Of a DNA stretch of 64,000 bases, positions 33,201 through 58,539 are shown piece by piece. Each line of letters begins with the position of its first letter. The first letter of the stretch is position 1. The position numbers and the translations under genes were made by a program. Under the pieces are notes generated by a model. The model worked only from the letters and a program-made list of their open reading frames with translations, had not been told where the DNA came from and searched no databases. The DNA is from Trypanosoma brucei (taxonomy: Eukaryota), in the NCBI GenBank assembly GCA_000002445.1, contig AE017150.2:480001-544000 (forward strand). Reading direction: 5' to 3'.

Positions 33201-34300
33201 CCACCCTGGTGGCCCAGAACACAAAACAAATGGCGCTCTCTTAGTGCGGCTACTTGCTGTGCGTGAAGGTATACTCGTTCTGCGGACTGCCGTTTCATCG
33301 GATTGTTTCCATGAGGTTGCAACACTTCCATTGCCGCATTTTCCACAATTTTATTCGCTTGCTGTCGTCTCTATTGACGATACTGTGCTCGATCGATGTG
33401 GTCGTCAGCAGCTGGAGTACTCAAGCCATGTGCCTTCCTGAAGCGCGACGTGGAAGGCGCCTGCACGAACACACACACCGGTCAACTACGGCCCACCAAA
33501 ACTCTCTCTTATTCGATCGCATGCTCTTTCACGAGAAGTGGTGCAGCATTTCTACACTTCCAACTGTACTCCGCTTTAGGTAGAAACAACGATGTGCGGC
33601 CGCGTTAAGGTCATTGTCACAGCGAAATGAAGTTGCCCCATCGAACGGGTTGTAGATTGCAGTAGCAACGGGTGCCAAAAGCGCCACGAAGTTAACTTCA
33701 CGAGGGGAAGGAAACGAGTTAAGTCCCTCAAGCTTTTCACTGCCTGCCCGCAGGGTTGTTTCCGCTGAAAAAGAGGGTTCGAACGCCGACCCCGCGGTTC
33801 AGCCTTTACTTTTTGCTGCAACAGGCGTCAAAAACTGATGCAATAACTCATTTGGAACTTCGAGCGGGTTGAACGCGGTGGCTAACAGAAGGCGAAGGCA
33901 ACCGGCTTACGTGTATCAAGCGCCAGATGGGCACCACCCAGTTTCCTTATCCCACATACCAACGATCCATTGACGCACTTCGGTGCAACAGGTCACTCGC
34001 GCTCATTTTGCCATTGCTTCGTCCGCGCTGCACAAGACGCTTACAACAGGAATCGTTCCTTACTTACCTTTCCATACGTTTAGTCCACGCATACCTTGGC
34101 GGGGCCTTTTCCACCCACTTTCTCAAATGTGTCAGCGTCCCCGATTGACCGTCTAACCCCACCTTGGCCTCTTCTTTGTCTTGTCCCCCTTTACATGCGC
34201 TTGGGTTCTGTGCGTTGGCATGTCATCCGTTGCAGCACTGAGCCTGTTCTAACTGGCAGAAGCGCCGCCCGCTGCACTTTCTGACTCTATCGCAGCTTTT
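30264..34300 (-). promoter_or_regulatory. Left half of the divergent strand-switch region; A+C-rich on the plus strand (G+T-rich in the direction of minus-strand transcription); putative dispersed Pol II start zone for the minus-strand cluster
   Basis: No ORF over ~105 aa on either strand. The composition is the reverse of the right half. The position lies between divergently oriented first genes. GT-rich start regions are described for T. brucei Pol II units. Confidence 0.45.
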
Positions 34301-37300
34301 GATATCACAGCTCCAGCCGACGTAGACCCTCGGTCCTTGCTGTTTGGATTCATGCATTTCGTGGGTAAGGGTCGCAGGACTTCTGCGCCTGGTTTCAAAT
34401 CTTCCAGCCTAAACAGCTTGGAGCGGCGGCGTTCCAGTCGTCCCCAAGGCGCCAACCCTCGCACCGCATCCTCACTTACCCCGCAGCCAGTGTGAGATAA
34501 CACAAGGGGCTCGTACTGTAGCAGTAGGGGAAGTTCCTTGCACTTTATGTATTAGTTGCTGCTCGGCTCTCCCTTGTGTGTCCGCCCCTCTGCTGCGTAT
34601 GTTTGTCTAGGGAATTTTGTCCCATACGTGTTGTCTGCGGCGCAGTCGTCGCGGTGCCCTTTGTGCCAGCGTTGACGAAAGGAACGTTTCATCACCCACA
34701 GCCTCTTTTATCATATCGTCGGTCGGGTGCTTATTGTTGGTGTGCGACGGAGTCCACGGTGTGTGGGCACACTTCCTCTGAGGCCGGCTGCGTCTGTACC
34801 ATGGCCCGCTCTTTGGCCAAGGAGCACCGGTTTGCTGTAAATTATGCGCAGTTTACGCCGTTGCGTCATGGTTGGAGGTTGCCAGCTCCTGTTGCCGTCG
34901 GTCTGGTGCCTTTCGTCGTCTTAAAAATCGTCTGCGTCTCAGGGGGCCGGCTTCGCTGTTTTTTGATTTGGTCTCGCTGTGGGGCTACCGGGCCCTTTGG
35001 GTGCAGTATATGTGATATTTCCTCCAGTCCGCGCTCCGCGAGCTTGTTTGATGGGTATGGCGTTGCCTGCGCCCTCTTGTCCGTAGGCATTGGTGCCCTC
35101 CCTTGTCACGGCGGCTGGCCACCTTCGCTACATACGTTGTGATTGTTTAGTGCTTCAGGTTCTGCAGTATATCAAGGTCTGGGCTGGGTTATGCGGGCGC
35201 GGCCTCGTTTGTGCGGCGTCCGACTCGATTGGGCCACTTGGGGTGCGTGGAGCCGCGTACGATATATGGTGGTTTGCTTAGTAAGGATCGTCGTGCCTCC
35301 TTTTAAGTATTTCTAGCGGTCAGCCCCATACAGCGCCTTCGTGGTTGCCTGGAGAAACCACCATCGGCTTTGTGCACGTTCTTGGCGCAGCTCTCTGCGT
35401 GTGTTCCTGGAAGGCGTGTGTTTGGCGTATCATGTCTTTGAGCAGTTGTTCGTTTGTCTTGGGGACTTTGACTGCAACTTTGGCAAATGTGCTCTTTCCT
35501 TTTGGTGGCATTTTTTTTGTATATCTCTGGGCCGGATGTTGTACTTCTACTTTGCTTTTTCTTCCCCCATGGCAGTCGTTTTAAGACTTGACTGAGGAGA
35601 TTGACCTCGTGCGCTTGGTAGTTTCTTAGTGACCTGTTTTCTAATTGTTGAATGGCTTTCTCTTACCCAGATGTGTGCGTTGTGACAGCGAGCGGCTGTT
35701 ACATTATGATGAAGTCGTTGTTTCCTTAGAAGTGAATCACGAGATGGACTCCCGACTGAACCATTTTGGTGGAGTCGAGATGTTCTTTATTTTAAATTAT
35801 TTTTATCAATCTTTTCTTTTGCCGACTCGCAGCACTTGTACTACTCGTGCTTGCGGACTCTAGGAAAGAGGGGAAATTTCGTTTCGGGTTGTTCTGTAGA
35901 AGATTGTACGATAGCATCCTAAATATTCCTTATGGCTGTTGGGTAACCGCCATGGTGCATTGTTTTGTGTGATTAAAAGCGCATTGATCTCCGCAGTGTT
36001 CTCTATTTCTTGTTTTGGTTAATAATGCCTCCTTTTTGTTGTACCCGTGGCTTTTTTTGTTTGAGAGGGATTTAACGCTTTTTTCCACAGTGTGTACTGT
36101 CGTGTGTGTGTGAAAGCCGACGTTCCACCATTGCCCCCGTGATGTGACCTCCGTTTTCCCCCTTTGAGAGCATTATGTGCACATTTGCGGGGAGTCAACG
36201 TTTTTTTGGCGTGGGTAAATGTTTAGGTGTAAATATTTTGGTATTGCGATTGAAGGACGGAGGTTGCCTCGCTGTGTTCGGAAGCCTGATTTACACTGTC
36301 AACAACTTACAGGACCCTCAATAGTCGTCGGAGTGCGTGACCAAGCTACAGTGCACGCCTTTTGCTGTTGTACTTCCTTGTATTGCAGGGCAACCAGGAT
36401 ACTTACACGGTTTAGTAGACAGCCCTTTGTGTGGCGTGTGACAGAGGGCTGAAAAGCTACCTTCGATCCGTTTTGAAGGAATGGACGTGCTTCACGGAGG
36501 GTTTCGTCTTTTAAATCCCCCTTTCGAACTCGTTTAAAGCTTTTTCCATAGAGTGTTATGTTGCCCTTGCTATGCTTCTTTTATTACTTTTACCGGCAGT
36601 GGTATGCGTTTTATCTTTTCTCCTTTAGTGACTTCCGCTCCTACGTAGCGTGGGGAAGTTACAGTATCTTCATAATGTGTGGATATGGTGGTTGCTTTTC
36701 TTTCAAATCTTTTCCGTTAGGCATGTGTCTCGGTTTTTTCGTCGTGCCTCTGAGTGCGATCGCTGTTGCCACTATTTCCAATCCTTTTCAAAAGCCGAAT
36801 GAAATAATTGGTCGTGCTGTTTGCACTTTTCCTGTATGCATAGGTCGCTAACAACCTACTAACCCCTTGTCATCTCGTTTGTGTTGCAGTGTAAAACTTG
36901 CTGTGTTGGTGCTCGGTCTGTGATTGCGGCTGCTGGCCCGTTTGCTTCACTAACTGGTGACGGCTGTCGGGACACACATGCCGAGGAGTAAACGTATAAG
37001 CTTGTATCTTGTTTTGTGCTTTCGGAATTTTCGTGAATTCCTTTCTTCCTTTCGCACCTTCTCTGACTATTTTCCTCTATTGTGTTCCAACAGCACCGAG
37101 AAGAGGTGTTGCTGCAACTCCCTGCATGCACATGGACGACGGCGTTGTTTTTCTTTTCCATCAATATTCTTCCAGTGGTATTTCTCCGCTCGGACCGTGG
37201 TTGTATTTGGTTGTACTGAAAGGTGATGGAGGTTACACACACCACTCTTTTGTATAGTTATGTAACCGTGGCAACTGCGGGGAGCCCTGCTGGTAATTTG

Positions 37301-39904
37301 TTTTGGTTGCTAATGGGGGTTGTCTTATACGTTTTTTTCTTTGCACGGGATATGGTTATTCGTGTAATCTTTGTTTTCGGCTACTGCCCTTATTTCTGTT
37401 TCCTGCGCCACTCGTCTCTGTTGGAAGTTGCACGGGGCGACAGGACCAGTTTTGGTAAGATGGGTCGTGGACCTTTCGGGGTTATCTCCGTTTCACAACT
37501 GGTGGATCGCGATAGTAATATATATGCCTGCTGTTCTTTTTTTTTATCTTTGACAATAGAATCGAAATCCTTACTTGTATCGGTATAGATTCTTTTTACA
37601 AATTTCCATTTCCGTCTCTGCTTGTGTTCTTAGTTCCTGTTTTTGCATTTCGGTGATGCAGGTGCGTCGGTGCGCACTTCGTGCCGATCATCCAGCGGCC
37701 GGCTCTACCTGATTTTTTGAATCAGACATGCTCTTCGTAATGTTTGGTCATTGTTTGGCAGTGTAGTGTACTTCGTGAGATAGGTACGATCTTTTGTTTT
37801 CGTAGTAACGCTTTCCCTATGTTCTCCGATACGGTGTAATACTTGGAATCGGTTGTGTGCTTTATGTTTGCCACTGTAGCGAAGCACTGGGTGATGGTTG
37901 GGGTGTAAAAATATGTTATGGGATCCGTCAAGTTGCTTTGTATTTGTTAATTTCCGTATGGGAGGATGTTGCTCAATGTGGCTGATACTTTGTGGTCTCT
38001 TGATTTTGTTGTTCGCATGGGCCGACGTCGCCGAGGGAGCAGTAACCCATCGTGACGCTGCGTGTGTGTGATGATTGCACGGAGGGAAAGACTTTCGTGT
38101 TAGTTTCCTTCGTAGGGCTCATATCGTACTTCCGTGTATTGTTCTTTATATTGTGATCCTAATTTCTGTAACATCTATTGGCTCGCACTCCCTCTTTTTA
38201 TTTGTTTCTCCGGGGATTTTTTTTAACTTTCCTCTGCTGGTGGACCCTTTGAGTGCAACGCAGACTGTTGTGATGATGCCGGTGGGGTTTGAGAATGGGA
38301 AGAAGATGCCTCCGGGGAGAGTAGTTGAGCGACTATTTTTGGCTCTTTCGGATTGCATCTACCCTAATTCTTTGTGGGGTTCCACTTAATTCTGCTCTCC
38401 GTTGCTTCGAAGAAACTTCCTTTCTGGCACGCTAATGTTCAGCGTCAGCTTTGTGGCGCCTTTATTAACGGCACTTTGTGCTACCCTTGGTCCGTGTTTC
38501 TGTACTATTCTTCTTTACTGCACGAGCGTGCAGTGTCGCTCTGTCGGACATTACAACATATGCTATGCATATCGTCTCCAGTTTTTTCTTCGTGTATTTA
38601 CGGGCTGGTTGAGGGGGCCTTTTCGATGTAACTTTATTCGTTTTCTGACGCTTTTTCACAGGTGCTTGAGAGTCACCGACAATTTGTCCATCCGATACAT
38701 ATCTTTCGTTTCCTGAAGCCTTTTTTCTTCAAAAAAAAAGGCTGATTAACTGGGTTGTGCTTGTTCATCCGTCATTTGGGATCTAGCTCTTCTTTTACGT
38801 TTTAACGAGCTGTGTTAGGTCGGTATATCTTGAGAGTATGGTGTGCTTGGCGTGTAGTTGGGAGGATCAGGGAGGTGTTTTTGTTTGTGTCCATTAACTA
38901 ATCGGCTTGCTCGGTTTTGTTGTTTTGCGCAGAAGAAGCATGGTGTTGCTGGGTTGTGTGAGTCGGATGCATGCGAGTGATGAAGCAATGAAGACAGTTT
39001 AGAAGAGGTCTATGAGAATATGTTACTGTGTTTATTGCTCCGCCACTATACTTTGTTAATGATAATGGACACAACGGTAACTATGGGGCAGTTACCAACT
39101 CCCTTAGGTCAGATTGGTTTACTGCTTATTTCGCTGTGCGCATCCCGATTGTTGAAGCGCACTTTCTTCATTTGTGCATATCATTTTCCGAAAATCGAGG
39201 GAGCATTGTCAACCGTTTTTTTGTTACGGCTAGTACGGCGACATCAAGTTGGTATGAAGCTATCTAAATGAAGGTGATCGCAATGAAAGCAGAGGACGGG
39301 TGGCCGACGATGCCCATTTGGGAAATGCGTTCTCACTCATTCGTTCTTTCCACTAGGGCTTTCTGCGGTTGATTTCCTCTATTTGTGGGTTACTTGAAAT
39401 CAATTTCCACATTTTTATACCTTTTTGCAAACGTGTGACATCCACCTGCTGTATGCGTCCACCTGAAGTTAGTCCAGACACTTAAGTTAACATTGATGTA
39501 CATTTTCTACCTCTTTCATTGCTTTACCTTGTTACATTCATTAAGCACATTGCTGTGTGGCTCACAGCAGGGGCCTTGTGCAAACAGAAATAGCTCCCGT
39601 TTTCTGTGATAGGAGGCAATAAGGTGTGAGTCAAAGTTCGGGGAGATTGGGTTCTGCTTCCCGATAGGACCCGCCTCTAGCGCAGTTTGGTGTTAAAAGA
39701 TCTTGTCGAAGGAATTTGTACTGGTTGAGGAAGAGGAGTTGTTGGCTTGAGATATACAACAGCTGTTTACCGCATTTGCACATTCTGAACAGGCGTGCCT
39801 GTGGCCCATAAGCAAGGAATTGCTCACGGTATTCTCTGGAGGGGTACCTTTCTATTTCCGGGCTGATAGGCGCTTTTTCGTTCAGCCACTTAACGTCCCC
39901 CGTG
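34301..39904 (+). promoter_or_regulatory. Right half of the divergent strand-switch region; strongly G+T-rich and A-poor on the plus strand for ~5.5 kb; putative dispersed Pol II start zone for the plus-strand cluster
   Basis: Visible T/G excess over A/C on the plus strand from ~34.5 kb to the first ATG at 39905 (runs such as gtttgtgtg, ttttggtt, gttgtt). No ORF over ~190 aa, and those present are T/G-codon artefacts (F/L/V/C/G-rich). Confidence 0.5.
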
Positions 39905-42900
39905 ATGCTCAAAGTTGCTCCGAGTGAGTTGCAGTTTGGCACGCTGGCGGTGAATGAGACACCCGCGTATTGTCGTTTCTGTGTTCAGAACGCTGACACA
40001 CATGAATCTTTATCGGTGAAGTTGACGGCTGCGACTTATTCATCTTGCGTCCGCTTCCAGCTTTGCGACGACGCACTGCTAGTAGACGACGATGACGCTG
40101 ATGGTGGTGGCATGTACGGATCTTGGCAATGCTCCGACACACTAGGGCCAACGCCGAAGTTTTACAACGCTGCCTACGATAGTATTAATTTGATTGAACT
40201 ACTTGAACTTCACCCGAACGAAGCACGAGAGATCATTGCTATCTTTAGTCCCGATCCTGAGGTATTTCCCAATGTTGTGGAGCGTACGGCACCGACACTG
40301 GTGAGTGGTACCATTCAACTGACGTCTACTTCACTCCCAAGAGCAACCCCGGCGCGTTCACTAACGTGGAGCGACGATGTGGGTTGCGTCACCTCCTCGT
40401 GTGCGCCGTCTCCCCTGCTTTGCGCTGGTGACAAAGGCTGCTCGCCTCTATTTTCCTCGCAACCTACACCGCTGTCCCGCACTGCGGACGGTACGTTAAA
40501 GAGCAAAACAGTTACATCAGCCAACCGCGGCTTTCTTCACGCCGCCGTCCGGTCGGAGACTCTGACCCTCCCATTCAGTGCCACCGTGTTTCTTTCTGCA
40601 TTCACTGTGTCTGTGTCAGAGCTCCAGGCAACGATGGCTCCCAGTAGAACGCACCTGATGGGATTCAAAATAACGAATATTTCACCGCTTCCGCTGCAGC
40701 TCGTCATTCGTATGCAAACGATGCCCCACAAAAACGTTGAATTAACTGTCTGTGAAGAAGACCAGTTCGAAGTGTCACTGATCGGACGGGTGTTAGTGCT
40801 TGATGGCCATGCCTCGATGAATTTCACTGTCATCGTCCGCACTGCTGCTGTTTCCGAACTGGCCGGTAGTGGCGCGATAATGAAACGGTTTTGTCACCGC
40901 ACTGTTCTTCAATGTGATAATCTTCGTGATGCACGCAACTCAGAGCTTATATCGGTTAATGTGAATGTTGTGCCTGAGCACCTTCAGAAACCCCTGGTTA
41001 GCGTGGCTGACCCCTACCTCGACTTCGGTGCTGTGTACCGAGGTACGCGGGTTGTGCGGGAGGTGAGTATTTGCAATGTTAGCCGTGAAGATTTAACGGT
41101 GCGCTTGCTTAACCCCCGGCCACCGCACTGCGAAGGTGTACTAACCCTTGTTCGTGGTGCCAGAAGTGAAGCTAGTGGCGGGAAGGACATAAAGAGCGTA
41201 AAAAATAGTACCCCTGTTAAGATCACTGACAAGAAGAAGAGTAGCACCGCTGTCGTAGGACCATACGATAACATTGTACCTGCTGATGAGCTCGTAATGG
41301 CAGCTCAGAAGGGCTCATTGCAGGTTGGCGTCATGTACGTTGCGTCCACGGACTCAGAGTATAAAGGGACCGCGAACCTCAAGTTTGAACTGGATTTCGT
41401 CATCACAGGATATGAGAGTGGTGCCAATAGCAGCAGGCGTGAGCAACGTGTGGTTGTTCGGTGTGTAGCGACACTCTTTACGAGCACCATCGTGGCTCCG
41501 CTAACTAATATCAACTTCGGAGACTGTCCTGTTGGCCAGACACGCCGGGTCACATTTCATATTGAGAACCCTTCGCTACTACCAACTACCATCAACGTGC
41601 AGCTTCGAAGTAAAATTGTCTCTATTGAAGGGGTGCCCGCGCGGCTCTCCGAAACGGGCGCACCTGAAACAGTCGGGGAGTTTTCCATTGCGCCTCAGAG
41701 CAGTCTGCCTTTGACGTTGCGGATGACCCCACAACGTGTCAATCCAACGTACTGCAAGCAGCTTACTGTTGTAAACGTATCAAATCCTGCGGAGGACCGT
41801 CTCATATTAACCATTGAGGCAAATAACATGCAACCCGCCGACATGGAGCTTCATAATGAATTCTATACGTGTGAGAGTCGGCCCCTGTGCTACGAGGATG
41901 GAGTGAACAAAACTAGGGACGGGGCTAGTGGTGGTAGCAGTATTGAAGCGGATGAACGTAGCGGTGGTGGTGCAGCACCGCTGCGTGCTATTGCAAGTGT
42001 TCCGCTTTTTGTTGCCTACAGGCTGCTGTCGAGGGTGAACTATCCTCTCGAGCTGCAGCTTTCTACGACAGGTGCGGAGATTGGTACATTTTGTTTGGAG
42101 GGGATGCCGTCGGCGGACTGGGAGGCACTTGCTGTGGAGCTGCACTCATGCTGTTGCTTTGGCGGCGAGGATACGGCTAGTAAATTGGCACCTGAGCGTG
42201 CGGAGGAGGTGCGAGACGGAGTAATGCGTGCGTTGAATAACCACGCTATGTCTGTAAGTTCGGTGGTACTGGAACCGCGAGGCAGCACCACTTTGTATGC
42301 CTGTATTCTGCGAAATTCAATTGGCGGCGTGGACGCTGTGACAAAGGAGGATGGTATTAATATAGGCATAGAGCACGTCGAACTGCGGCGTTTTATGCGG
42401 CTTTCGTACCGGGTTTGTTCCACACGCTTTGAACTGGGCGGCCAGAGGGCTAAACACTTCGGAGAGGTAAATGTCGGTGAGCGGAGGTCTACAAAGGTGC
42501 CCATCACCAATCAGTGCAATTCTCTGTTGCTTCTACGCGTGACGAAGTCACGAAGTGTTATGGCTGGCTATATTCGTGTGGATGGCTCAGATCGCAATTC
42601 TATTTACTTTCGCATTCGTCCGTTCGCTACGAAAGAACTGGAACTAACCTTTTCTCCGGGGCTGAAGGGGAGCCTTGAGGAACGTATTCAGTTTGTTAAT
42701 ATCCTCAACCCTGGCAACGAAGTTGTAATTACTGTAAAGGCTACTGTCACTAAGGCCGAAACTTTCGATGTAAGCCCTGATTCGTGGAGCTTTGGTCTCG
42801 TTTCCGTGCCAATGCTTCAGCCGGTTACTAGTGGCGTCGCAACAAACGTCAGAGGATCGACTTTAGTGGCGGGAAAGGGAAACGGAGGTGCTGGCAATGA

Positions 42901-45900
42901 CGATAGTAGCCGCCAAGTGGCTCGCGTCGGAGCCCGTTTCACTGTGTCTAACACAAGTAGCGCGCGCCGTGCCTTGCGGCTGAAGCTTGACACCACGGTT
43001 AGTAACAGCAGTGTGGGTGGAGGAAATGAAAATGCCCATTGCCCATTGGAGCGTTTTTTCAGGTTTGAGGGGATTGATGTTCGGCTGCAGCTGGAGATGG
43101 AACGGGGTGGCGCGTCTTCCGGTTCTTCCCGGAAGCTGGAGGAAAAGATTGAGAAACTCGAGCAAAAGTTGAAGATATATCGTCGTAAGAACAAGGTTGA
43201 TAAAGTTGCTGCTGCAGTGCGCCAGATTGAGGAGCTTAAACGCGCACTGATGGGCGAGGTTGTGGATATCAACACACTTGAGCCTGACGATGGTGACACA
43301 AAGAGTAGAGATCCCCAACAACAACGACTTCAGGACTTGAAGTCCCCCCGTGAAACCCCCGAAGGCGAGGACGAGAAGTTTGCAGCCTCCAAGGTGCGGT
43401 TGCAGGAGCACGGTGAGCTCCTCTCAATGCTTCTTCGGGATGGGATTGCGTTATCCGAAATGAATGCTGGGGAATCAATTATTCTCGTGCTGGGGATTAC
43501 ATGCACCCGGACGGCTGAGCACATTCCGGCAGCACAAAGTGGCATTTTAACTTTTGTGCTGTACGAGGCAAACGACACGGAGGCAAGCAGAACCATACCT
43601 GTCGATATAACACTTGTGCGTGTAGAGGGGGAAGCAGACATCGGAACAGTGGTAGGAGGGGAGAGGCCGTTGGCCCATGCGGGCAAAGCTGGTGGAGGAT
43701 CAAGCACCGATGCAAATTTGCCGGGGATACTGCCGCCGACGCCTCGTTCTCCGTCACGTCCAGGGAGCGACAACCCATCGCCGATGCAGGCTCCTCCAGA
43801 AACATCAGGAGGAGCCGCACAACTGACGCGACCAGGACCAGCCTCACAGTGTGATTCCACCTCGTTTATATCACTTGAGCTGGGTGATGTTGTGGGAGTA
43901 TCATCTTTCATGTGCTTTCCAATGATTTCATTAAACAACTGCGTTGTGCAAGAACGGTGTGATTTTACATTTTACGTGCGCACTACTATGGACACCTCGA
44001 TTGTAGTACTTGAGCCCTTTCGATGTTGCGGCCCCGGTGTCGTTACCAGCGGTAGCTACGGTGGGTGTATGGATGCCATGGTTGATGCCTGTGGAGCTAT
44101 GGATGACCGTGAGATTTGTAAGGGATCAGCGGCTGTTAGCCACATGGCGACCGCCAGGGTTGTTGGTGAAGAAATGTCGGCCCTTTCAGGGCCTTGCTCT
44201 ACGTTGAGAGCGACAGTAAGAACTTTGGATGCGTCTTTCAGGTTTTCTCGACGGAGGGGTGCTCTCCACTCGCGACAGCCGCTTTCCATCAACGTTCAGT
44301 GCACACCGAGTAGCGGTGGTCCGCAACGCTACTTTATCCCCGTCGCAAACCTTCAGGACGAGGGCAACGTGACTTACCTCGTGGTGAGCCTTAATCCATC
44401 GCCAGTGGATGATGGATGCCTGCTTAAAGTGGCTCCAAGCACTTTGAGCATGCGCGACATCGTCCTGCCATGTGACACTGCTCTTTTGGACGTCCAATCG
44501 TTTGCTGTGCGTAGCCATGTAGGCCGGCCGCATGCGTTACTTATTCGATCAACTAGGCCGGCACTTGTCAGACTGTTCGAGGACGCCAAATGTAGCGTCC
44601 CACTGAAAAACCCCGTTAGGTGCTCATTTTCCGAGAAACTTAAAGTTTACGTGCAGCTTCGCCCAAGCGAACATTCTCGAAAGCATGCAAGTCGAGTGGT
44701 GACCGCCGGCATACTCATTGAGGCTATAGTCTCTACCCGGGGCCTCGACTGTGGGCATAGTGGTGACCCTATTCACGGAGGTCAGTGCGGTTATGCTATT
44801 CTCGCGCATTCCGTTGTCCGCGTGTCTGCACGCATTGGCAGCGGTGAACTGGTGTTGCGTGAATCATTTATCGATATGGGCTCCGTGGCTCCTCACTGTC
44901 ATCAGGCCCAAACCACTCTAACTGTGTGGAACCCCTCCGACTGCTTTGAGGTGCGGGCTCGGTTGGTTGCCTCCATGCCGCTTACCGGCATTGGCATTCC
45001 CGAAATTACCCTCCCCCCGGGTGGTAAGGTTGATGTGCCCATAACGTTGCATATTCCGACTCCGGGACTTGTCCGTGAGTCGATATCTTTGCATAATCTT
45101 AGCTGCAAGCAGAAGACGCTGAGTGTGCGACTTAATGTGTTGAGACTTGATGAAGCGATATCAGTAAGCGTCGTCCCATATGAAGTCCAGATGCAGGGAG
45201 AAGCGCTGCTGCATTCAACCGCGGTTCATCCCGGATGTGCTCAGGATGGTTGTGGTGTCGTAGCTTTCCCCACCGCTGCTGTTGTATGTGGGGAGGGCGG
45301 TGTGTTTCGCCTCCATAACCCCGTGGTTAGCACCGCCATGCATGTGACAAACAACAGCATGAGGAGCCTCATTCTTATAGCAAGGAGCAGCGCCCCATTT
45401 GTTTTCGGGCATCCTGATACCACTTTGCAGCTGTCGGGAGTGCCACCGTATCACGAAGATGGCTTCGTTTCTATGTACCTGCCCTCTCCACCCGATTCTT
45501 ATCCCTCTTCTTTGGCTGAGACGGAGACAGAGACGGAGGCCGAGGCGGAGATGAAACCGCTTTCACATTCGTATACCCGCGGTCGTCTGCTGCTTGATGC
45601 GCGTCACACACAGGCGGTCGCGTGGACGCTTACATCGACTCCGCCGTTTACTCTAAAGCAGAAGCAGCGGCTGCTGCGACACGAGCTGGTAACAGTGGAG
45701 GTCGCAGCGTACATCTACGTTGGTCAAGTCGTGGAGGAAACGACAGGTTTTCCATTTAATGACATGATGTTCTCGGCGGTGCGGCCCTTGCCAATGGCGG
45801 AGCAGTGCGTTCTCGTACCAAAGTTTTTGCTTAACTTCGCGGTGAGCGAAGGCCGCGTGGAACCATCCGTTATTGACCTGGGCGTTGTTGTTGTGAATAA

Positions 45901-48900
45901 GGGCCACGTGGGTAGTAGTCCGCTAACGTCATCCACCGCGGAAGTCCCTGCGAAGCAAACTGATGTATTGTGCAAAAACGAAGTCGATGTCCCAAAATTG
46001 CGACGGCAAGCTGAAATATCAACAGCCACTGCACCACGTGCGGAGAGAAAGGATGGAAACAACCTAAATCATGCCATATCAATACGGTTGGTGAACTCTT
46101 CTTTTGTTTTGCCTTTGAACTTAAGCGTGGAGTGTGAACCCACGGTGAGGTTTGCGAGCAACCGTGTGACGGTACCTCCTGGTCAAACCGTTGTGGTGGA
46201 GGCTGTGCTCGTTCCGAAGCTGATCCAGTCTGAGGGGCCATTTCGTCTTTCCGTTTACTTCGTGAATGAACAGAATCCAGAGAATGACATGGTTGTCTGC
46301 GTCACGGGCCAATACTACCAAAAGTCGTTTAGGCTTTCATGGGACGGAGTCGTTGATGGCCGCAAGGAGTCGCTGTCGATGCAACCGCTTCGTTTGGAAG
46401 ACATATCCACCGCTACTTCGGCCGTTCTCTCTCAAACAAAAATCACAATGACGGCCGTAGAGCCAAACATTGAGGTTGGAGTACGGGCAGTTGTGAATCC
46501 AGAGCTTGAAGGTGTTATTCAGCTTCAGGCACTGCAGTATGACGCCTCTTCCACCCTGCAGAGCGTTATATTTGGCCAAGTGCCACTGCTGGCCATGGCT
46601 GGAAACACCAATCCCAACAGCGACAGCGTCGCTGGTGTGTCTGTTAACAGTGGTGGAGCCCCTGGCAACGGTGGGAGCAACAATGGCAGTGGGTTAACGG
46701 CTGGCGCTGTGGGCACGGGCTCGAATACTGGTGGAATAACTCCGGTCGGTGCCGATTCTGGGGGCGCTTTACCCGCTGTGGGTGTGGCGGGCAGCGCTGG
46801 AGGTCCGCTGAATGCAGGTTGTGGTTGTGCCGCAGACAATCCTGCAGCGCCGTCAGTCCCAGGAAGGGGCGTAGTGGTTTGCTCAAAGGATCATCAACAA
46901 TTTCGGTTGCGTTGCGTACTTGTTAAGGAGGATTTTCCAGTGTTGGCGGGTGTTTTCTTCGGGCAGCGAAAGCATAAACACACGGCCGATATTCTTCGCG
47001 AGAGACAGGGCCTAACATTCACCAAGCTTGAGGAGTTAAAGTCGCAACGTTCCGCGGTATCCCAAACGATGTGGTTAGGAACACTCCACTTCTCGAATGA
47101 GGTGACGGGAGGTGATGAGGAGGTGCAAATATTTAGTTCACTTAGCGCGTTCTGCACTTTCAAGGTATCGTCCAAACTGGTGCTCCGGCCACGGTGCTCC
47201 TTGACTTCGGGATCCGCCGTGGACGGTGCAACTGCAGTAGCACATGTGGGGACGGCGACAGTAGCTCCCGAGGCGATGTACGTTTATGAAGGTGAGTTGG
47301 TTGTCTCAAATCTCTGCCAGGAGCACGTTGTAAGGCTTTCCATCACCCCGTTGCTAAATTGTGGACATCACGACGGTGTCGTTCTTCAGTGCGTATCGTG
47401 TGAAGGATCCAAGGATACGGCAGGGATGTCTGCGGATGATGCCTCTGCGACGGGAAATAGCAATAATTTCGCCAGCAGTGACATTGGTTACGGTGACGGT
47501 GCTAACCTTGCTGATGTATGTACGAAAAATGACTCACGGGCGTCCCTACCAGTTTCTAGTAGTGCTCATCTACCAGAATTACCGCAAACAAACGTGAAGT
47601 CCCCTGGTACCGCCTCACAATCAACGGTAATAATGCCGATATCTCCTCAGAATACCGTGCGTGTGCGGGTGTTGCTTTGCATAGACAGAGCGCGTAACAA
47701 ATCGAGTGTTGAACAGGGCGCTGGATTGGCCCTGTTTGATGAAGCCGTTGCGTGCAGCTTCGCTGCCGTTCGTATCTCACTTGCGCCGGCAGATGATAAC
47801 GACCGAGAGAAGGAGCAGCAACAAAAGCAGCAAGAACAACTTACCAGGCAACCCTTTCGACGTGCGGATTCCTCTGGTGTTTTGGCTAGTGGAAATTCTG
47901 GCTCCGTTTCTTACAAAGCCGTAAAGGACAACATCTCGGAAGGAGAGAAGGGGGTTGCAGCAGACAGGGAGGACACTGCAGTAGGGAATGCTGCCCCACC
48001 CGGGAGCAACCCGTTGGATGTAACACCCGATGTTAAACCTGACCGCCCCGAGATCCTCTCTTCGCAGCTCACACGGTCCCACACTGTGCTCTCCCTTAGC
48101 GGCAACTGCACCGAAGTGCGCGACTGCACGGGGGTGTACACCTCTAGCTTTTCTTTCAGCAAGGACTCCGTGCCCACTACAGACATCACTATCACTAATC
48201 ACCTCAGTGACGGTGCGGTTGAGTATGCCGTTGCTGTCATTTCCCAAGGCCCACAGCCATGGTTGCTTCTTCCAGTTTCCACCGCTGTGCTGGAACCTGG
48301 GGAGACCCAACCACTTCGGCTCAACATTCTCTCCACAGATGCTGGTTCGTTCGTTGGTCACGTGAGCATCAGCAGTGGTATCACCCCTGGAAAGCTAATC
48401 CTGTTGAAATTGAATGCTGAGGTGTTCCTTCCCACTGCGGGGGAGGGTCTGTTTGAAATTCTTACTTCCAATGGGCAGCGTCTCTCTAGCGGAATGGAGA
48501 AAGATATTTTCGTTGGGAGGCTCTTTGGGGACAAAACTCACCGTGCCCGCGTGGCCCTTGAGATTGTGAACCGCTCCTCTGTTCCTCTTGAGTTCCCTGT
48601 GAGTGTGGGGAAGTCGATGCGCATGGAATACATAAGTGCTCCGGGGGAGGAGGTGAGCTCAGCAATAATGAGGAACAATATCTCCGATACCGCAGGTGGC
48701 CGCGACGTTGATCTGAAAACTGGCCCACGCACCGCGAAGGAAGCCGATGAGGAGGATAGCAAGCAGCAGGAACAACGCGGAGCTTACAATGATGGTGACA
48801 GGGGTTCCGGTAACGTGCCTGGTGCCTCTCATCCCCGGTGTTCCGTCCGACTTCTCGTGTGTCATTTACACAGCGTGTCGGCGATGCGTGGCGAGCGATA

Positions 48901-50194
48901 CTTTGTTGTTGACCCAAAGTCTCGACTGAAGGTGGCCTTTTTGTTGGTGTGTGATCACCTACAGTTACCAGGGGGTCTTTCAGCATCCGGTGAGGCTGAG
49001 GTGGTGCTGACTTGCAAGCAGGCCCGTGACGCACGATACGTGTTTAAGACATACTTCCGTGTCTGTAGACCTTCTTTCTCCGTGCAGAGGGAGCAGCTTT
49101 TCACTCAGGTGGAGAACTACACGGTTGCCCTTGCGGTGACTAATCTTAACCCTCAGGAGTCTCTAATTTTGTTCCGGACCGCTTCACCCGTGCTCGTTGT
49201 CCAAGTTCCGACTGAGCAAGAAGGGGAGGACCCAGGCTGTGCTCTGATTACTATTGCAGGTGGGGCGACCGCGTTTTTTAACGTTCGGCTTGACATTTCG
49301 CGGCTTGCTTCCTTGTACAACTGGAGTAAGTCGGGAAATAACAGCGGCAACGGTGATGATACCGCTAACTGTGATGTGGATACTTTGTTGCAACCGTTGT
49401 CTGAGCATGGCGTGCTACTCAATGTCCGCAACCCAAGTGAACACGTTCGAGTGGAGTTTTGCTTTTTCCCGTCCACGACTGTTCAGGGACCTTCCGCCTC
49501 GTCCTTGTCAGCTGCGGCGGTGGCAGCGGTGTACCCTGTTTCGCAGTCGATCAAGTTGTCGCGCCGACTCAACTGCGAAAAGCGGCTGTACCGCTTTGTT
49601 CAAGAGTTTTCACGTGTGTTGTCCGAAGTATCAGAGTTTCTTCTACCAGAGATACAGGAGCATGCCTCTCTTGAGGGGTTTCTCCTTTCACCAACTGTAA
49701 ATGATGGCACGAGTGGTGGGACTACGACGGGTCGCGGCTCCGGATTCGGTAACAATTGGAATAATGGTGATAGTACTCATGGAGGCGCTGTTGGAAGTGG
49801 TGGTAGCACTGCTGGAGCTGCCAGTCATGAGAGTGTCAGTGGCGCAGGGCATCCGGGTCGGAAGGACAGTTTGGAGGGGAGGGAGGAGGGAGATGAGGAT
49901 AACCGTGTGAGTTTGTTGGAGGATCGAATGCCTTCCTCTCAACGCTCCCACTGCTGGCGGGCTCTTCATGGGTTATTAGTGGACCTTTCTTGGTTGGTGG
50001 AGGAGCTTGTGTATTACTCCATTATGCTCAGTAACTCCAGGGCCATCGAAGCGTACGGCGTCTTTCTTGCAACGTCGGTTAGCGGTCATCCACTGCTACG
50101 TCTCTGGCGGCAACACCGGAAGAAGTTGCCCCCAGCGTTGCCCCTTGCAATCTTCGAACAATTCCTCGAGGCAATCGATGCCCTCCCTTGTTGA
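39905..50194 (+). CDS. Giant (~3429 aa) protein built of tandem ASH/MSP(PapD-like) beta-sandwich modules with a central coiled coil; hydin/CFAP-like putative flagellar protein
   Basis: The ORF-track start at 39902 is GTG, and ATG is at 39905 (MLKVAPSELQFGTL). Many modules carry the ASH-type signature hydrophobic-x-FG-x-V-x-x-G...h-x-h-x-N-x-S/G, for example LQFGTLAVNETPAYCRFCVQN, LDFGAVYRGTRVVREVSICNVS, INFGDCPVGQTRRVTFHIENPS, HFGEVNVGERRSTKVPITNQCN, IDMGSVAPHCHQAQTTLTVWNPS and IDLGVVVVNKGHVGSS. A coiled coil KLEEKIEKLEQKLKIYRRKNKVDKVAAAVRQIEELKRAL sits at ~43.1-43.25 kb. Gly/Ser/Asn-rich linkers are present. Confidence 0.7.
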   Translation: MLKVAPSELQFGTLAVNETPAYCRFCVQNADTHESLSVKLTAATYSSCVRFQLCDDALLVDDDDADGGGMYGSWQCSDTLGPTPKFYNAAYDSINLIELLELHPNEAREIIAIFSPDPEVFPNVVERTAPTLVSGTIQLTSTSLPRATPARSLTWSDDVGCVTSSCAPSPLLCAGDKGCSPLFSSQPTPLSRTADGTLKSKTVTSANRGFLHAAVRSETLTLPFSATVFLSAFTVSVSELQATMAPSRTHLMGFKITNISPLPLQLVIRMQTMPHKNVELTVCEEDQFEVSLIGRVLVLDGHASMNFTVIVRTAAVSELAGSGAIMKRFCHRTVLQCDNLRDARNSELISVNVNVVPEHLQKPLVSVADPYLDFGAVYRGTRVVREVSICNVSREDLTVRLLNPRPPHCEGVLTLVRGARSEASGGKDIKSVKNSTPVKITDKKKSSTAVVGPYDNIVPADELVMAAQKGSLQVGVMYVASTDSEYKGTANLKFELDFVITGYESGANSSRREQRVVVRCVATLFTSTIVAPLTNINFGDCPVGQTRRVTFHIENPSLLPTTINVQLRSKIVSIEGVPARLSETGAPETVGEFSIAPQSSLPLTLRMTPQRVNPTYCKQLTVVNVSNPAEDRLILTIEANNMQPADMELHNEFYTCESRPLCYEDGVNKTRDGASGGSSIEADERSGGGAAPLRAIASVPLFVAYRLLSRVNYPLELQLSTTGAEIGTFCLEGMPSADWEALAVELHSCCCFGGEDTASKLAPERAEEVRDGVMRALNNHAMSVSSVVLEPRGSTTLYACILRNSIGGVDAVTKEDGINIGIEHVELRRFMRLSYRVCSTRFELGGQRAKHFGEVNVGERRSTKVPITNQCNSLLLLRVTKSRSVMAGYIRVDGSDRNSIYFRIRPFATKELELTFSPGLKGSLEERIQFVNILNPGNEVVITVKATVTKAETFDVSPDSWSFGLVSVPMLQPVTSGVATNVRGSTLVAGKGNGGAGNDDSSRQVARVGARFTVSNTSSARRALRLKLDTTVSNSSVGGGNENAHCPLERFFRFEGIDVRLQLEMERGGASSGSSRKLEEKIEKLEQKLKIYRRKNKVDKVAAAVRQIEELKRALMGEVVDINTLEPDDGDTKSRDPQQQRLQDLKSPRETPEGEDEKFAASKVRLQEHGELLSMLLRDGIALSEMNAGESIILVLGITCTRTAEHIPAAQSGILTFVLYEANDTEASRTIPVDITLVRVEGEADIGTVVGGERPLAHAGKAGGGSSTDANLPGILPPTPRSPSRPGSDNPSPMQAPPETSGGAAQLTRPGPASQCDSTSFISLELGDVVGVSSFMCFPMISLNNCVVQERCDFTFYVRTTMDTSIVVLEPFRCCGPGVVTSGSYGGCMDAMVDACGAMDDREICKGSAAVSHMATARVVGEEMSALSGPCSTLRATVRTLDASFRFSRRRGALHSRQPLSINVQCTPSSGGPQRYFIPVANLQDEGNVTYLVVSLNPSPVDDGCLLKVAPSTLSMRDIVLPCDTALLDVQSFAVRSHVGRPHALLIRSTRPALVRLFEDAKCSVPLKNPVRCSFSEKLKVYVQLRPSEHSRKHASRVVTAGILIEAIVSTRGLDCGHSGDPIHGGQCGYAILAHSVVRVSARIGSGELVLRESFIDMGSVAPHCHQAQTTLTVWNPSDCFEVRARLVASMPLTGIGIPEITLPPGGKVDVPITLHIPTPGLVRESISLHNLSCKQKTLSVRLNVLRLDEAISVSVVPYEVQMQGEALLHSTAVHPGCAQDGCGVVAFPTAAVVCGEGGVFRLHNPVVSTAMHVTNNSMRSLILIARSSAPFVFGHPDTTLQLSGVPPYHEDGFVSMYLPSPPDSYPSSLAETETETEAEAEMKPLSHSYTRGRLLLDARHTQAVAWTLTSTPPFTLKQKQRLLRHELVTVEVAAYIYVGQVVEETTGFPFNDMMFSAVRPLPMAEQCVLVPKFLLNFAVSEGRVEPSVIDLGVVVVNKGHVGSSPLTSSTAEVPAKQTDVLCKNEVDVPKLRRQAEISTATAPRAERKDGNNLNHAISIRLVNSSFVLPLNLSVECEPTVRFASNRVTVPPGQTVVVEAVLVPKLIQSEGPFRLSVYFVNEQNPENDMVVCVTGQYYQKSFRLSWDGVVDGRKESLSMQPLRLEDISTATSAVLSQTKITMTAVEPNIEVGVRAVVNPELEGVIQLQALQYDASSTLQSVIFGQVPLLAMAGNTNPNSDSVAGVSVNSGGAPGNGGSNNGSGLTAGAVGTGSNTGGITPVGADSGGALPAVGVAGSAGGPLNAGCGCAADNPAAPSVPGRGVVVCSKDHQQFRLRCVLVKEDFPVLAGVFFGQRKHKHTADILRERQGLTFTKLEELKSQRSAVSQTMWLGTLHFSNEVTGGDEEVQIFSSLSAFCTFKVSSKLVLRPRCSLTSGSAVDGATAVAHVGTATVAPEAMYVYEGELVVSNLCQEHVVRLSITPLLNCGHHDGVVLQCVSCEGSKDTAGMSADDASATGNSNNFASSDIGYGDGANLADVCTKNDSRASLPVSSSAHLPELPQTNVKSPGTASQSTVIMPISPQNTVRVRVLLCIDRARNKSSVEQGAGLALFDEAVACSFAAVRISLAPADDNDREKEQQQKQQEQLTRQPFRRADSSGVLASGNSGSVSYKAVKDNISEGEKGVAADREDTAVGNAAPPGSNPLDVTPDVKPDRPEILSSQLTRSHTVLSLSGNCTEVRDCTGVYTSSFSFSKDSVPTTDITITNHLSDGAVEYAVAVISQGPQPWLLLPVSTAVLEPGETQPLRLNILSTDAGSFVGHVSISSGITPGKLILLKLNAEVFLPTAGEGLFEILTSNGQRLSSGMEKDIFVGRLFGDKTHRARVALEIVNRSSVPLEFPVSVGKSMRMEYISAPGEEVSSAIMRNNISDTAGGRDVDLKTGPRTAKEADEEDSKQQEQRGAYNDGDRGSGNVPGASHPRCSVRLLVCHLHSVSAMRGERYFVVDPKSRLKVAFLLVCDHLQLPGGLSASGEAEVVLTCKQARDARYVFKTYFRVCRPSFSVQREQLFTQVENYTVALAVTNLNPQESLILFRTASPVLVVQVPTEQEGEDPGCALITIAGGATAFFNVRLDISRLASLYNWSKSGNNSGNGDDTANCDVDTLLQPLSEHGVLLNVRNPSEHVRVEFCFFPSTTVQGPSASSLSAAAVAAVYPVSQSIKLSRRLNCEKRLYRFVQEFSRVLSEVSEFLLPEIQEHASLEGFLLSPTVNDGTSGGTTTGRGSGFGNNWNNGDSTHGGAVGSGGSTAGAASHESVSGAGHPGRKDSLEGREEGDEDNRVSLLEDRMPSSQRSHCWRALHGLLVDLSWLVEELVYYSIMLSNSRAIEAYGVFLATSVSGHPLLRLWRQHRKKLPPALPLAIFEQFLEAIDALPC

Positions 50195-50879: not shown

Positions 50880-51432
<553 letters not shown>

Positions 51433-58135: not shown

Positions 58136-58508
58136 GAATATATGTAAAAGGGAAGAAGGGAGGGACGGCAGCGGCAGCGGCAGCGGCATTGGCATTGGCA
58201 TTGGCGATGACGGTGAAGGTTATGATGATGATGATGGTTGTGGAGCCAACAGTGAATGTAAGGGGAGAAAGGAATTTTATAAACGTGAGTGTGTATGTGC
58301 TTCCACTGGTGTATTTCTTTGTGAGACTTGGGGATTTTTCTGGGTTTCCCTCTCTTTTTTTTTTTGGTTTCGTAGGTGTTTTTGTGCGTACATAAATATA
58401 TGTGTTTTTTTCTTCCTTTTTGCGCTTTTTGGCAGTATTTGAGTTCCCAGGGTGTTTTTTAGTGTGTGTGTGGGTGGGCGACATGTAAAAAAAATATCAA
58501 TGAACAAG

Positions 58509-58533: not shown

Positions 58534-58539
<6 letters not shown>

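What the first reader, a model, noticed from the sequence alone, without database searches (positions are those of the whole stretch)
39905..50194. Giant ~3429-aa ORF made of at least 15 ASH/MSP-type modules: hydin/CFAP-class axonemal protein candidate
Repeated ~100-aa units each begin with the hallmark h-x-FG-x-V-x-x-G...N-x-S pattern of ASH (ASPM/SPD2/Hydin) domains, beginning with LQFGTL at residue ~9. They continue through the whole ORF and are interrupted by a coiled coil and Gly/Ser/Asn-rich linkers. Proteins with this architecture, such as hydin, CFAP47, CFAP65 and CFAP74, build central-pair projections of motile cilia. It is also the first gene after the start zone of the plus-strand cluster.
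Basis: partly seen in the sequence, partly recalled or inferred. Interest (0 to 1): 0.6.

Follow-up and report, generated by a model that had tools for sequence, protein, structure and literature searches.

The report
Giant ASH-repeat protein, not hydin
The 3,429-residue open reading frame is a real, conserved Trypanosoma brucei gene built from a long string of ASH (hydin-type) immunoglobulin-like domains, but it belongs to an unnamed ancient protein family that fungi without flagella also keep, so nothing here shows it is an axoneme protein.

Summary
The ORF (39905-50194, +, 3,429 aa) is real. It is T. brucei TREU927 chromosome 2 protein XP_951560.1, annotated "hypothetical protein, conserved".

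ASH/PapD-like domains are present:
- Pfam finds three above its own thresholds, all in the first 950 residues.
- Profile-profile comparison with ortholog alignments supports 11 modules at 92% probability or more, between residues 9 and 3190, and 3 more probable ones.
- An AlphaFold model adds one further beta-sandwich.
The literal FG...N-x-S motif occurs only 4 times.
- The coiled coil (1073-1116) and two Gly/Ser/Asn linkers are confirmed.

It is not an ortholog of hydin, CFAP47, CFAP65, CFAP74 or Cep192. Sequence matches to those solved chains cover only one or two domains, and TbHydin is a separate gene.

It is instead the trypanosome member of a collinear, eukaryote-wide family in which every member whose source name I looked up is unnamed or "hypothetical". 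Full-size members occur in the aflagellate fungi Mortierella, Umbelopsis and Calcarisporiella. That argues against a purely axonemal role.

The most likely role is a long structural scaffold, but its cellular location is unresolved.

Verdict: the domain call is right and the axonemal function is unsupported. This is a new member of a known kind, of moderate interest.

The parts
39905..50194 (+). Complete coding sequence: 3,429 codons plus stop. It is T. brucei brucei TREU927 chromosome 2 protein XP_951560.1 / AAQ15722.1, 'hypothetical protein, conserved'.
   Evidence: ORF and translation. A 3,429-aa member of the cluster of the 100%-identical hit carries these accessions and sits on a 1,193,948-bp contig. 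Orthologs: T. vivax 59% identity, T. rangeli 48%.
39929..40258 (+). ASH/PapD-like module 1 (residues 9-118).
   Evidence: hhalign 97.4% against a non-kinetoplastid ASH profile; reversed control 2.9%. Iterated HMM 20 bits.
40622..40966 (+). ASH module 2 (residues 240-354).
   Evidence: hhalign 97.1%. Iterated HMM 25 bits.
41018..41350 (+). ASH module 3 (residues 372-482, with an internal insert).
   Evidence: hhalign 97.7%. Weak Pfam PapD-like and Cep192_D2 hits at 363-395.
41510..41839 (+). ASH module 4 (residues 536-645). It is part of the family's conserved core.
   Evidence: Pfam Cep192_D4, ASH and CFAP74_4th. hhalign 98.4%. AF2 beta-sandwich with pLDDT about 80-90. The block profile 455-660 that contains it hits 126 non-kinetoplastid homologs.
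41981..42439 (+). Beta-sandwich with a two-helix insert (residues ~693-845), lying between modules 4 and 5.
   Evidence: AF2 model: strands and helices H234-247 and H259-274 in model numbering, pLDDT mostly about 70-87 apart from a dip to about 55-62 at model residues 231-260. hhalign to ASH gives only 6%, so the fold assignment rests on the model alone.
42452..42754 (+). ASH module 5 (residues 850-950). This is the best-conserved ASH domain of the family.
   Evidence: Pfam Cep192_D4 44 bits, ASH, and HYDIN_VesB_CFA65-like_Ig. hhalign 98.6%. AF2 pLDDT 85-92. The block profile 835-975 hits 129 non-kinetoplastid homologs.
42767..43054 (+). Probable ASH module 6 (residues ~955-1050).
   Evidence: hhalign 50% for 1005-1032. 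The family alignment shows a 'TF.I....DFG ... N.S..R' pattern. The family-profile hit on Chlamydomonas hydin 556-714 spans modules 5 and 6. AF2 confidence is low here.
43121..43252 (+). Short, highly conserved coiled coil (residues ~1073-1116, 'KLEEKIEKLEQKLKIYRRKNKVDK...').
   Evidence: AF2 helices at model residues 569-590 and 594-611. 65% identity among kinetoplastids, the highest of any block. The block profile 1061-1125 hits 115 non-kinetoplastid homologs in a collinear position.
43925..44404 (+). ASH module 7 (residues 1341-1500, with an insert).
   Evidence: hhalign 92.4%. Iterated HMM 23 bits.
44444..44824 (+). ASH module 8 (residues 1514-1640).
   Evidence: hhalign 96.1%.
44870..45184 (+). 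ASH module 9 (residues 1656-1760).
   Evidence: hhalign 98.0%. Iterated HMM 29 bits. The block profile 1645-1760 hits 76 non-kinetoplastid homologs.
45296..45634 (+). Possible ASH module (residues 1798-1910).
   Evidence: hhalign 35% over nearly the full profile length; reversed control 0.7%.
46037..46306 (+). ASH module 10 (residues 2045-2134; the first strand may lie at 1990-2001, before an insert).
   Evidence: hhalign 96.8%. Iterated HMM 32 bits. Weak Pfam fn3_5 hit at 2046-2104.
46595..46774 (+). Gly/Ser/Asn-rich low-complexity linker (residues 2231-2290).
   Evidence: Composition scan: at least 50% G+S+N. Poorly conserved. The first of the two frame breaks in the T. rangeli assembly lies at the end of the equivalent Gly/Ser/Asn/Ala-rich stretch.
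48143..48484 (+). ASH module 11 (residues 2747-2860).
   Evidence: hhalign 96.1%. The block 2715-2910 hits 59 non-kinetoplastid homologs in a collinear position.
48506..48784 (+). Probable ASH module (residues 2868-2960).
   Evidence: hhalign 72% for 2868-2916.
49103..49474 (+). ASH module 12 in order along the protein, the 11th robust one (residues 3067-3190).
   Evidence: hhalign 93.0%; reversed control 0.1%.
49685..49864 (+). Second Gly/Ser/Asn-rich linker (residues 3261-3320).
   Evidence: Composition scan.
49937..50191 (+). Conserved C-terminal block without ASH signal (residues 3345-3429).
   Evidence: 46% identity among kinetoplastids. hhalign to ASH 0.4%. 64.6% identical in T. rangeli. 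Only 4 non-kinetoplastid homologs match.

Best explanation
The ORF is a genuine, conserved T. brucei gene for a soluble 3,429-residue protein.

**Architecture.** It is a chain of at least 11, probably about 15, ASH/PapD-like Ig beta-sandwich domains. The chain is interrupted by one short, highly conserved coiled coil and by low-complexity linkers, and it ends in a small conserved non-ASH block.

**Family.** It is the trypanosome ortholog of an ancient, eukaryote-wide family in which every member whose source name I looked up is unnamed or 'hypothetical'. That family is related to hydin, CFAP65, CFAP74, CFAP47 and Cep192 only through the shared domain type.

**Mechanism (inferred).** Like other multi-ASH giants, it most likely acts as a long, semi-rigid structural scaffold or spacer. 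It would dock on a cytoskeletal, probably microtubule-based, structure through its Ig modules and pair or attach through the invariant coiled coil. Fungi without flagella keep full-length orthologs, so its core job is probably not specific to the axoneme. Its location in the trypanosome cell is unresolved.

**Shown:** the gene, its domains, the family and the non-orthology. **Inferred:** the scaffold role and independence from the flagellum.
For: - **Gene and identity:**
- **ASH domains:** Pfam above its cut-offs. Iterated HMM finds 8 modules with no decoy hits. hhalign finds 11 modules at 92% or more, with reversed controls at most 9.4%.
- **Structure:** the AF2 model of residues 505-1140 shows Ig sandwiches plus a helix at 1073-1115.
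- **No membrane segment:** the maximum Kyte-Doolittle score over 19 residues is 1.7.
- **Family:** 341 homologs at E<1e-3. 47 non-kinetoplastid proteins carry the collinear ASH4-ASH5-coiled-coil signature.
- **Collinearity:** eight to ten blocks recur in the same order in Riccia, Chromosphaera, Diphylleia and diplonemids. A smaller, still collinear set recurs in chytrids, Blastocladiella, Mesostigma and Naegleria. Five to eight blocks recur, also in order, in the aflagellate fungi Mortierella, Umbelopsis and Calcarisporiella.
- **Non-orthology to known ASH giants:** the giant protein, Chromosphaera and Mortierella members have no PDB sequence hits, and the Blastocladiella member has only a 33-bit hydin hit. 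The family profile hits hydin over only 160 residues. TbHydin is Tb927.6.3150.
Against: - No localisation, expression or phenotype data could be retrieved for this gene, so an axonemal location in trypanosomes is not excluded.
- Most taxa that carry the family are flagellated.
- The nearest solved relatives by sequence and fold are all central-apparatus proteins.
- The scaffold mechanism is inferred by analogy only.
- The C-terminal 1,300 residues have only 2-3 confidently assigned modules.
- The single-sequence AF2 model of residues 1301-2230 was uninformative, with pLDDT 32.
- Absence from animals, Dikarya and seed plants was not tested.
Confidence: 0.6

Rival explanations
1. The protein is an axonemal component that builds a central-pair projection, in the way that hydin, CFAP47, CFAP65 and CFAP74 do.
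For: - It has tandem ASH domains.
- The best PDB sequence-profile hit is Chlamydomonas hydin, E 6e-18, followed by FAP74, CFAP65, FAP65, FAP47 and FAP81.
- The top 22 Foldseek hits are all chains of central-apparatus structures.
- The family occurs in many flagellated lineages.
Against: - Matches to those proteins cover only one or two domains. The full-length protein has no PDB hit.
- T. brucei already has its own hydin.
- Full-length collinear orthologs persist in aflagellate Mortierella, Umbelopsis and Calcarisporiella.
- It is not seen among Tb927.2.26xx entries of the held flagellar APEX2 tables, where hydin is listed (weak evidence).
Confidence: 0.2
2. The protein is a centrosome, basal-body or MTOC scaffold comparable to Spd-2/Cep192. 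It would use ASH domains to assemble material around microtubule-organising centres. This would explain why the family is retained in organisms that lack flagella but still have MTOCs.
For: - Cep192_D4 is the best-scoring Pfam model for the T. brucei protein, at 44.4 bits against a cut-off of 35.5, and it hits 10 of 11 family cores.
- Retention in aflagellate fungi is compatible with an MTOC role.
Against: - The SPD-2 domain is defined by ASH4+ASH5 (Pfam Cep192_D4 + D5) packed as an 'extended cradle' (PMC11922060). No Cep192_D5 hit appears in any of the 11 family cores.
- The family profile against the CEP192 chain gives only E 0.15, compared with 6e-18 for hydin.
- HYDIN_VesB_CFA65-like_Ig scores better than Cep192_D4 across the family.
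Confidence: 0.12
3. The protein is a non-cytoskeletal ASH scaffold, for example in membrane trafficking, as with the ASH domains of TRAPPII subunits and OCRL.
For: - Weak Pfam hits to OCRL-like_ASH and TMEM131-type Ig domains appear in family members.
- TRAPPII is among the Foldseek hits at rank 49.
- The taxon distribution is independent of the flagellum.
Against: - These hits are far weaker than those to hydin/CFAP-type domains.
- Pfam finds no catalytic or trafficking domain.
- There is no signal peptide or membrane segment.
Confidence: 0.08

Closest known systems
Hydin (central-pair C2b projection protein; Chlamydomonas 7sqc_F0, mouse 9ijj_4G/4H; T. brucei Tb927.6.3150)
   Same: - It is a giant soluble protein made of many tandem ASH/PapD-like Ig domains.
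- It is the best PDB sequence-profile hit: E 6e-18, family core modules 5 and 6 against hydin residues 556-714.
- Foldseek E is about 1e-18.
   Different: - Similarity is limited to about 160 of 4,929 residues. The full-length protein has no phmmer hit.
- T. brucei has a separate hydin gene.
- This family has a conserved central coiled coil.
- Aflagellate fungi retain this family, and by established knowledge they lack axonemes.
CFAP65 / CFAP74 / CFAP47 / CFAP81 (DLEC1) / CFAP221: multi-ASH central-apparatus proteins
   Different: Each match covers one domain only. There is no collinearity. Pfam finds no calponin-homology domain, which CFAP47 has. The sizes and taxon distributions differ.
Spd-2 / CEP192 (centrosomal PCM scaffold, SPD-2 domain = ASH4+ASH5)
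   Different: - No Cep192_D5 match, and no D1-D8 order.
- Sequence-profile E is only 0.15.
- CEP192 has a long disordered N-terminal half (PMC11922060), whereas here ASH modules start at residue 9.
Uncharacterised eukaryote-wide orthologs (for example Mortierella alpina KAF9968753.1, Umbelopsis nana GAB5587420.1, Riccia fluitans KAL2649598.1, Chromosphaera perkinsii Nk52_evm38s2531, Naegleria gruberi XP_002671222.1)
   Same: Conserved blocks recur in the same order from the N-terminus to about residue 3100. They include the ASH4-ASH5-coiled-coil core, at about 25-35% identity.
   Different: - Lengths vary from 1,100 to 7,750 aa.
- The linkers, several middle blocks and the C-terminal block are specific to kinetoplastids or Euglenozoa.
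- None of these proteins has a described function.

Membership tests
ASH / PapD-like Ig domain superfamily (Pfam PF15780 and related models) | Significant match to ASH-type profile HMMs. | tested here: met
   ASH 32.5 bits (cut-off 27), Cep192_D4 44.4 (35.5), HYDIN_VesB_CFA65-like_Ig 30.6 (25.5), Ig-CFAP74_4th 29.4 (28). Eleven modules at 92% or more by hhalign.
ASH / PapD-like Ig domain superfamily | Ig-like beta-sandwich fold. | tested here: met
   The AF2 model of residues 505-1140 has pLDDT 80-92 in modules 4 and 5. The human HYDIN PapD-like domain superposes at 1.9 Å over 107 residues.
Hydin orthogroup | Collinear, full-length sequence similarity to hydin. | tested here: not met
   The full-length protein has no PDB hit at E<=1. 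The family profile aligns only 160 residues of Chlamydomonas hydin. TbHydin is Tb927.6.3150.
CFAP47 orthogroup | Calponin-homology domain plus ASH domains, with collinear similarity. | tested here: not met
   No CH domain in Pfam scans of the whole protein or of 350-aa pieces. FAP47 E 0.0044 and CFAP47 E 0.6, both single-domain matches.
CFAP65 / CFAP74 orthogroups | Collinear similarity to the ordered Ig domains of CFAP65 or CFAP74. | tested here: not met
   Only single-domain matches: FAP74 34 bits, CFAP65 32 bits. The Pfam hits to CFAP74 1st/4th and CFAP65 4th/7th/8th models fall on the same one or two modules and are not in order.
Spd-2 / CEP192 | SPD-2 domain: two adjacent ASH domains (Cep192_D4 + D5) forming the extended cradle. 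| tested here: inconclusive
Axonemal / central-apparatus proteins (functional class) | Restricted to organisms that build motile axonemes. | tested here: not met
   Collinear orthologs occur in Mortierella, Umbelopsis, Calcarisporiella, Rhizomucor and Coemansia. That these fungi lack flagella is established knowledge and was not tested here.
Axonemal / central-apparatus proteins (functional class) | Localisation to the flagellum or presence in flagellar proteomes. | not testable with these tools
   The TrypTag table held for PMC9981465 is cut at about Tb927.2.2370. The held APEX2 tables list hydin but no Tb927.2.26xx entry other than H4.V. No open-access main text cites any candidate ID from Tb927.2.2590 to 2660.

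The most novel reading that the evidence does not exclude
The gene is the trypanosome member of an unnamed giant ASH-repeat protein family that dates back to the last eukaryotic common ancestor. The conserved function of this family would be independent of the flagellum, since full-length copies persist in Mortierellomycota and Mucoromycota. It might be an MTOC or centrosome-type scaffold that fills the Spd-2/Cep192 role outside animals and amoebozoans.
Probability: 0.12. Interest if true: 0.8.

Novelty: new member of a known kind. Interest (0 to 1): 0.4.

Why it matters
Multi-ASH giants such as hydin are usually taken as signatures of motile cilia. This analysis shows a second, equally large ASH-repeat lineage.
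- It is conserved from trypanosomes to liverworts, ichthyosporeans and zygomycete fungi.
- Every member whose source name I looked up is unnamed or 'hypothetical'.
- It is not tied to having a flagellum.

T. brucei is genetically tractable, so tagging and knockout of this one gene would give the first functional handle on the whole family. It would also test whether ASH arrays have an ancestral role that is not ciliary. For genome annotation, the result is a caution: "many ASH domains" does not by itself mean "axonemal".

Tried and rejected
1. **Whole-protein homolog search.** The search for homologous proteins with the full protein timed out. With pieces or the core alignment it returned almost nothing: a Coemansia protein, a T. 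rangeli fragment and two weak hits. The representative library, by contrast, holds 341 homologs.
2. **Exact-sequence look-ups.** Look-ups of the giant protein and of VDAC found nothing.
3. **Self-HMM.** An HMM built from the four N-terminal modules found no further modules. The domains are too divergent for within-protein detection.
4. **Literal motif counting.** It gives only 4 sites.
5. **Structure prediction.** Single-sequence AlphaFold of residues 1301-2230 gave pLDDT 32 and was not used for fold search. The afdb50 library was unavailable.
6. **PDB sequence searches.** The full protein and the T. brucei + T. rangeli profile gave only noise.
7. **Localisation and proteome look-ups.** The TrypTag supplement is truncated before this gene. 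Three other supplements contain no relevant IDs. No open-access main text mentions candidate IDs Tb927.2.2590-2660.
8. **Readings considered and rejected.**
   - Hydin ortholog: a separate gene exists.
   - CFAP47: no CH domain.
   - Nup210/Pom152-type luminal Ig arrays and TMEM131: no signal peptide or membrane segment.
   - A bona fide Cep192: no D5 match and no cradle signature.
9. **RNA scans.** Rfam and tRNA scans of the window found nothing.
Full report
**Observation.** The window holds one open reading frame at 39902/39905..50194 on the + strand: 3,429 codons from the ATG at 39905, plus the stop. It is by far the longest ORF in the window. T. rangeli has an ortholog that aligns from residue 1, at 48% identity over residues 1-2225. 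T. vivax has one at 59% identity.

**What the locus is.** The neighbours identify a trypanosomatid polycistronic region.
- The minus-strand cluster carries RPN6, an FtsJ methyltransferase and two tandem VDAC porins. The VDAC genes are Tb927.2.2510/2520 in the literature.
- A stretch of about 8.5-9.5 kb without large ORFs follows (about 30.3/31.4-39.9 kb).
- The plus-strand cluster then begins with the giant ORF, followed by the histone H4 variant H4.V (CDS about 51130-51432; Tb927.2.2670) and a 1,501-aa protein kinase.
- The representative library returns a 100%-identical hit over residues 1-1200. A 3,429-aa member of that hit's cluster is T. brucei brucei TREU927 XP_951560.1 / AAQ15722.1, "hypothetical protein, conserved", on a 1,193,948-bp contig. 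UniRef auto-names it "ASH domain-containing protein".
- The 1,057-aa protein Tb927.2.2580 matches the last large minus-strand ORF. The giant gene's ID therefore lies between Tb927.2.2590 and 2660.

**Domain anatomy.** Pfam matches four ASH-type models above their own cut-offs: Cep192_D4, ASH, HYDIN_VesB_CFA65-like_Ig and Ig-CFAP74_4th. These hits fall only at residues ~363-395 (weak), 534-640 and 851-946. Scans of 350-residue pieces find nothing after residue ~1050. The literal "h-x-FG-x-h ... N-x-S" motif occurs 4 times, against 0.6-0.9 expected. An HMM built from the N-terminal modules alone finds no more. Three more sensitive routes gave more:
1. An ASH HMM iterated over the 150 homologs found 8 modules, with no hit in shuffled decoys.
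2. I compared kinetoplastid and family alignments of each conserved block with an ASH profile built only from non-kinetoplastid domains. This gave 92-98.6% probability for eleven modules: 9-118, 240-354, 372-482, 536-645, 850-950, 1341-1500, 1514-1640, 1656-1760, 2045-2134, 2747-2860 and 3067-3190.
   - Three more modules scored 35-72%: 1005-1032, 1798-1910 and 2868-2916.
   - Reversed-sequence controls never exceeded 9.4%.
3. An AlphaFold model of residues 505-1140, built with an 11-sequence alignment (mean pLDDT 69), shows several features:
   - two confident Ig sandwiches (modules 4 and 5);
   - a further sandwich with a two-helix insert at about 693-845;
   - a long helix at 1073-1115.

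So 11 modules are robust and about 15 are plausible. "At least 15" is not proven. Other anatomical points:
- Blocks 2141-2230, 2320-2510, 3150-3260 and the C-terminal 3345-3429 show no ASH signal.
- The coiled coil is the most conserved stretch of the protein, at 65% identity among kinetoplastids.
- Gly/Ser/Asn-rich linkers lie at 2231-2290 and 3261-3320.
- No membrane-spanning segment is predicted.

**The family.** A full HMMER search of 1.84 billion representatives with residues 1-1200 found 341 proteins at E<1e-3.
- Kinetoplastid orthologs share 36-59% identity and are 2,400-5,700 aa long.
- Beyond them, 47 non-kinetoplastid proteins carry the same ordered core: ASH module 4, then ASH module 5, then the coiled coil.
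- Profiles of each T. brucei block recover the blocks 1-150, 200-420, 455-660, 835-975, 1061-1125, 1645-1760, 2715-2910 and 2970-3110 in the same order in many lineages. The fullest sets are in Riccia (liverwort), Chromosphaera (ichthyosporean), Diphylleia and diplonemids. Smaller, still collinear sets occur in Mesostigma, chytrids, Blastocladiella and Naegleria/Willaertia (names).
- Five to eight of these blocks also recur, in order, in fungi that have no flagellum: Mortierella alpina (3,625 aa), Umbelopsis nana (3,067 aa) and Calcarisporiella thermophila (3,327 aa). Shorter forms occur in Rhizomucor and Coemansia.
- Every named member is "hypothetical" or "uncharacterised". One Diplonema entry has an evidently unrelated name.

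**Relation to known ASH proteins.**
- *PDB sequences.* The full protein and the T. brucei + T. rangeli profile have no meaningful PDB sequence match. The Chromosphaera and Mortierella members have none either, and the Blastocladiella member has only a 33-bit hydin hit.
- *Family-core profile.* It does reach the solved central-apparatus proteins: Chlamydomonas hydin E 6e-18, FAP74 1e-7, CFAP65 3e-7, then FAP65, FAP47 and FAP81, with CEP192 at E 0.15. Each match covers only one or two domains. For hydin, that is residues 556-714 of 4,929.
- *Foldseek.* It ranks 22 chains of central-apparatus structures first, then pilins, alpha-2-macroglobulins and TRAPPII.
- *SPD-2 domain test.* The SPD-2 domain is defined as Cep192 ASH4+ASH5 in an "extended cradle" (PMC11922060). 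None of 11 family cores matches Pfam Cep192_D5, and HYDIN_VesB_CFA65-like_Ig scores best across the family.
- *Separate hydin gene.* T. brucei hydin is a different gene, Tb927.6.3150 (PMC2048497).

The protein thus shares the domain class of the hydin/CFAP/Cep192 proteins. It is not a member of any of those orthogroups.

**Function.** What is shown is a soluble, extended, multi-Ig protein with one invariant short coiled coil. It is under long-term conservation across eukaryotic supergroups.
- *Inference.* By analogy with other multi-ASH giants, it is a long structural scaffold or spacer that docks on a cytoskeletal, probably microtubule-based, structure. The coiled coil would serve pairing or attachment.
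- *Against a purely axonemal job.* Full-length retention in aflagellate fungi argues against it.
- *What remains open.* A flagellar location in trypanosomes is not excluded, because I could not obtain localisation data.
  - The TrypTag table held with PMC9981465 is truncated before this gene.
  - The held APEX2 flagellar proteomics tables list hydin, but among Tb927.2.26xx IDs they list only H4.V.
  - No open-access main text cites any candidate ID.
- *Rival readings.* I rate the central-pair reading at about 0.2, a Cep192-like MTOC scaffold at about 0.12, and a trafficking-type ASH scaffold at about 0.08.

**Verdict.** That part is confirmed, although the module count is only partly confirmed. 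The functional label "hydin/CFAP-class axonemal protein" is not supported. The gene is an already catalogued "conserved hypothetical" protein. It belongs to a distinct, ancient, uncharacterised ASH-repeat family, which makes it a new member of a known kind. Interest is moderate. The useful finding is the family's eukaryote-wide distribution without regard to flagella, which T. brucei genetics could turn into a function.

Noticed in passing
window 51130-51432 (+): A histone H4 variant gene lies immediately downstream of the giant ORF ([24 protein letters not shown]...). This is H4.V, cited in the literature as Tb927.2.2670.
   Followed up: partly
window 14285-15097 and 15601-16413 (-): Two tandem 270-aa eukaryotic porin (VDAC) genes, matching the literature's Tb927.2.2510/2520. 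They served to anchor the locus on T. brucei chromosome 2.
   Followed up: partly
window 58136-64000: The ~6 kb after the kinase gene is very AT-rich (GC 0.29-0.35, against about 0.5 elsewhere). It has no ORF of 150 aa or more, only short TA-rich and A-rich tandem repeats, and no Rfam or tRNA hit. Its nature (long intergenic region, UTR or repeat-derived) was not examined.
   Followed up: no
window 30276-39904: An ORF-poor divergent strand-switch region of about 8.5-9.5 kb. The + strand has strongly negative AT skew (T-rich) from about 34 kb. A 105-aa minus-strand ORF at 31041-31358 may be a small gene.
   Followed up: no
L001:2581-13268 (T. rangeli AM80, MKGL01000413.1): The T. rangeli ortholog is annotated as three separate genes (2,274, 559 and 717 aa) in three reading frames. 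The first break lies at the end of a Gly/Ser/Asn/Ala-rich low-complexity stretch; the second, near nt 10977-10990, lies in ordinary coding sequence. Assembly frameshifts are the likely cause rather than a pseudogene.
   Followed up: partly
P0043 (Diplonema papillatum KAJ9462745.1): This 3,162-aa family member is named 'RNA 3prime-terminal phosphate cyclase' in NCBI. The name is at odds with its collinear ASH-repeat architecture, so it is probably a mis-annotation or a gene-model fusion.
   Followed up: no
P0029 (Mesostigma viride, 7,750 aa) and P0017 (5,723 aa, unnamed assembly): Some family members are about twice the T. brucei length. The shared blocks sit at the two ends, which implies large lineage-specific internal expansions.
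   Followed up: no
window 53630-58135 (+): A 1,501-aa protein kinase with a C-terminal kinase domain (residues 1113-1397). A hydrophobic stretch around residues 590-650 was noticed by eye in the translation. It is probably the gene the literature calls Tb927.2.2720, cited in papers on the quorum-sensing pathway and the membrane kinome.
   Followed up: no
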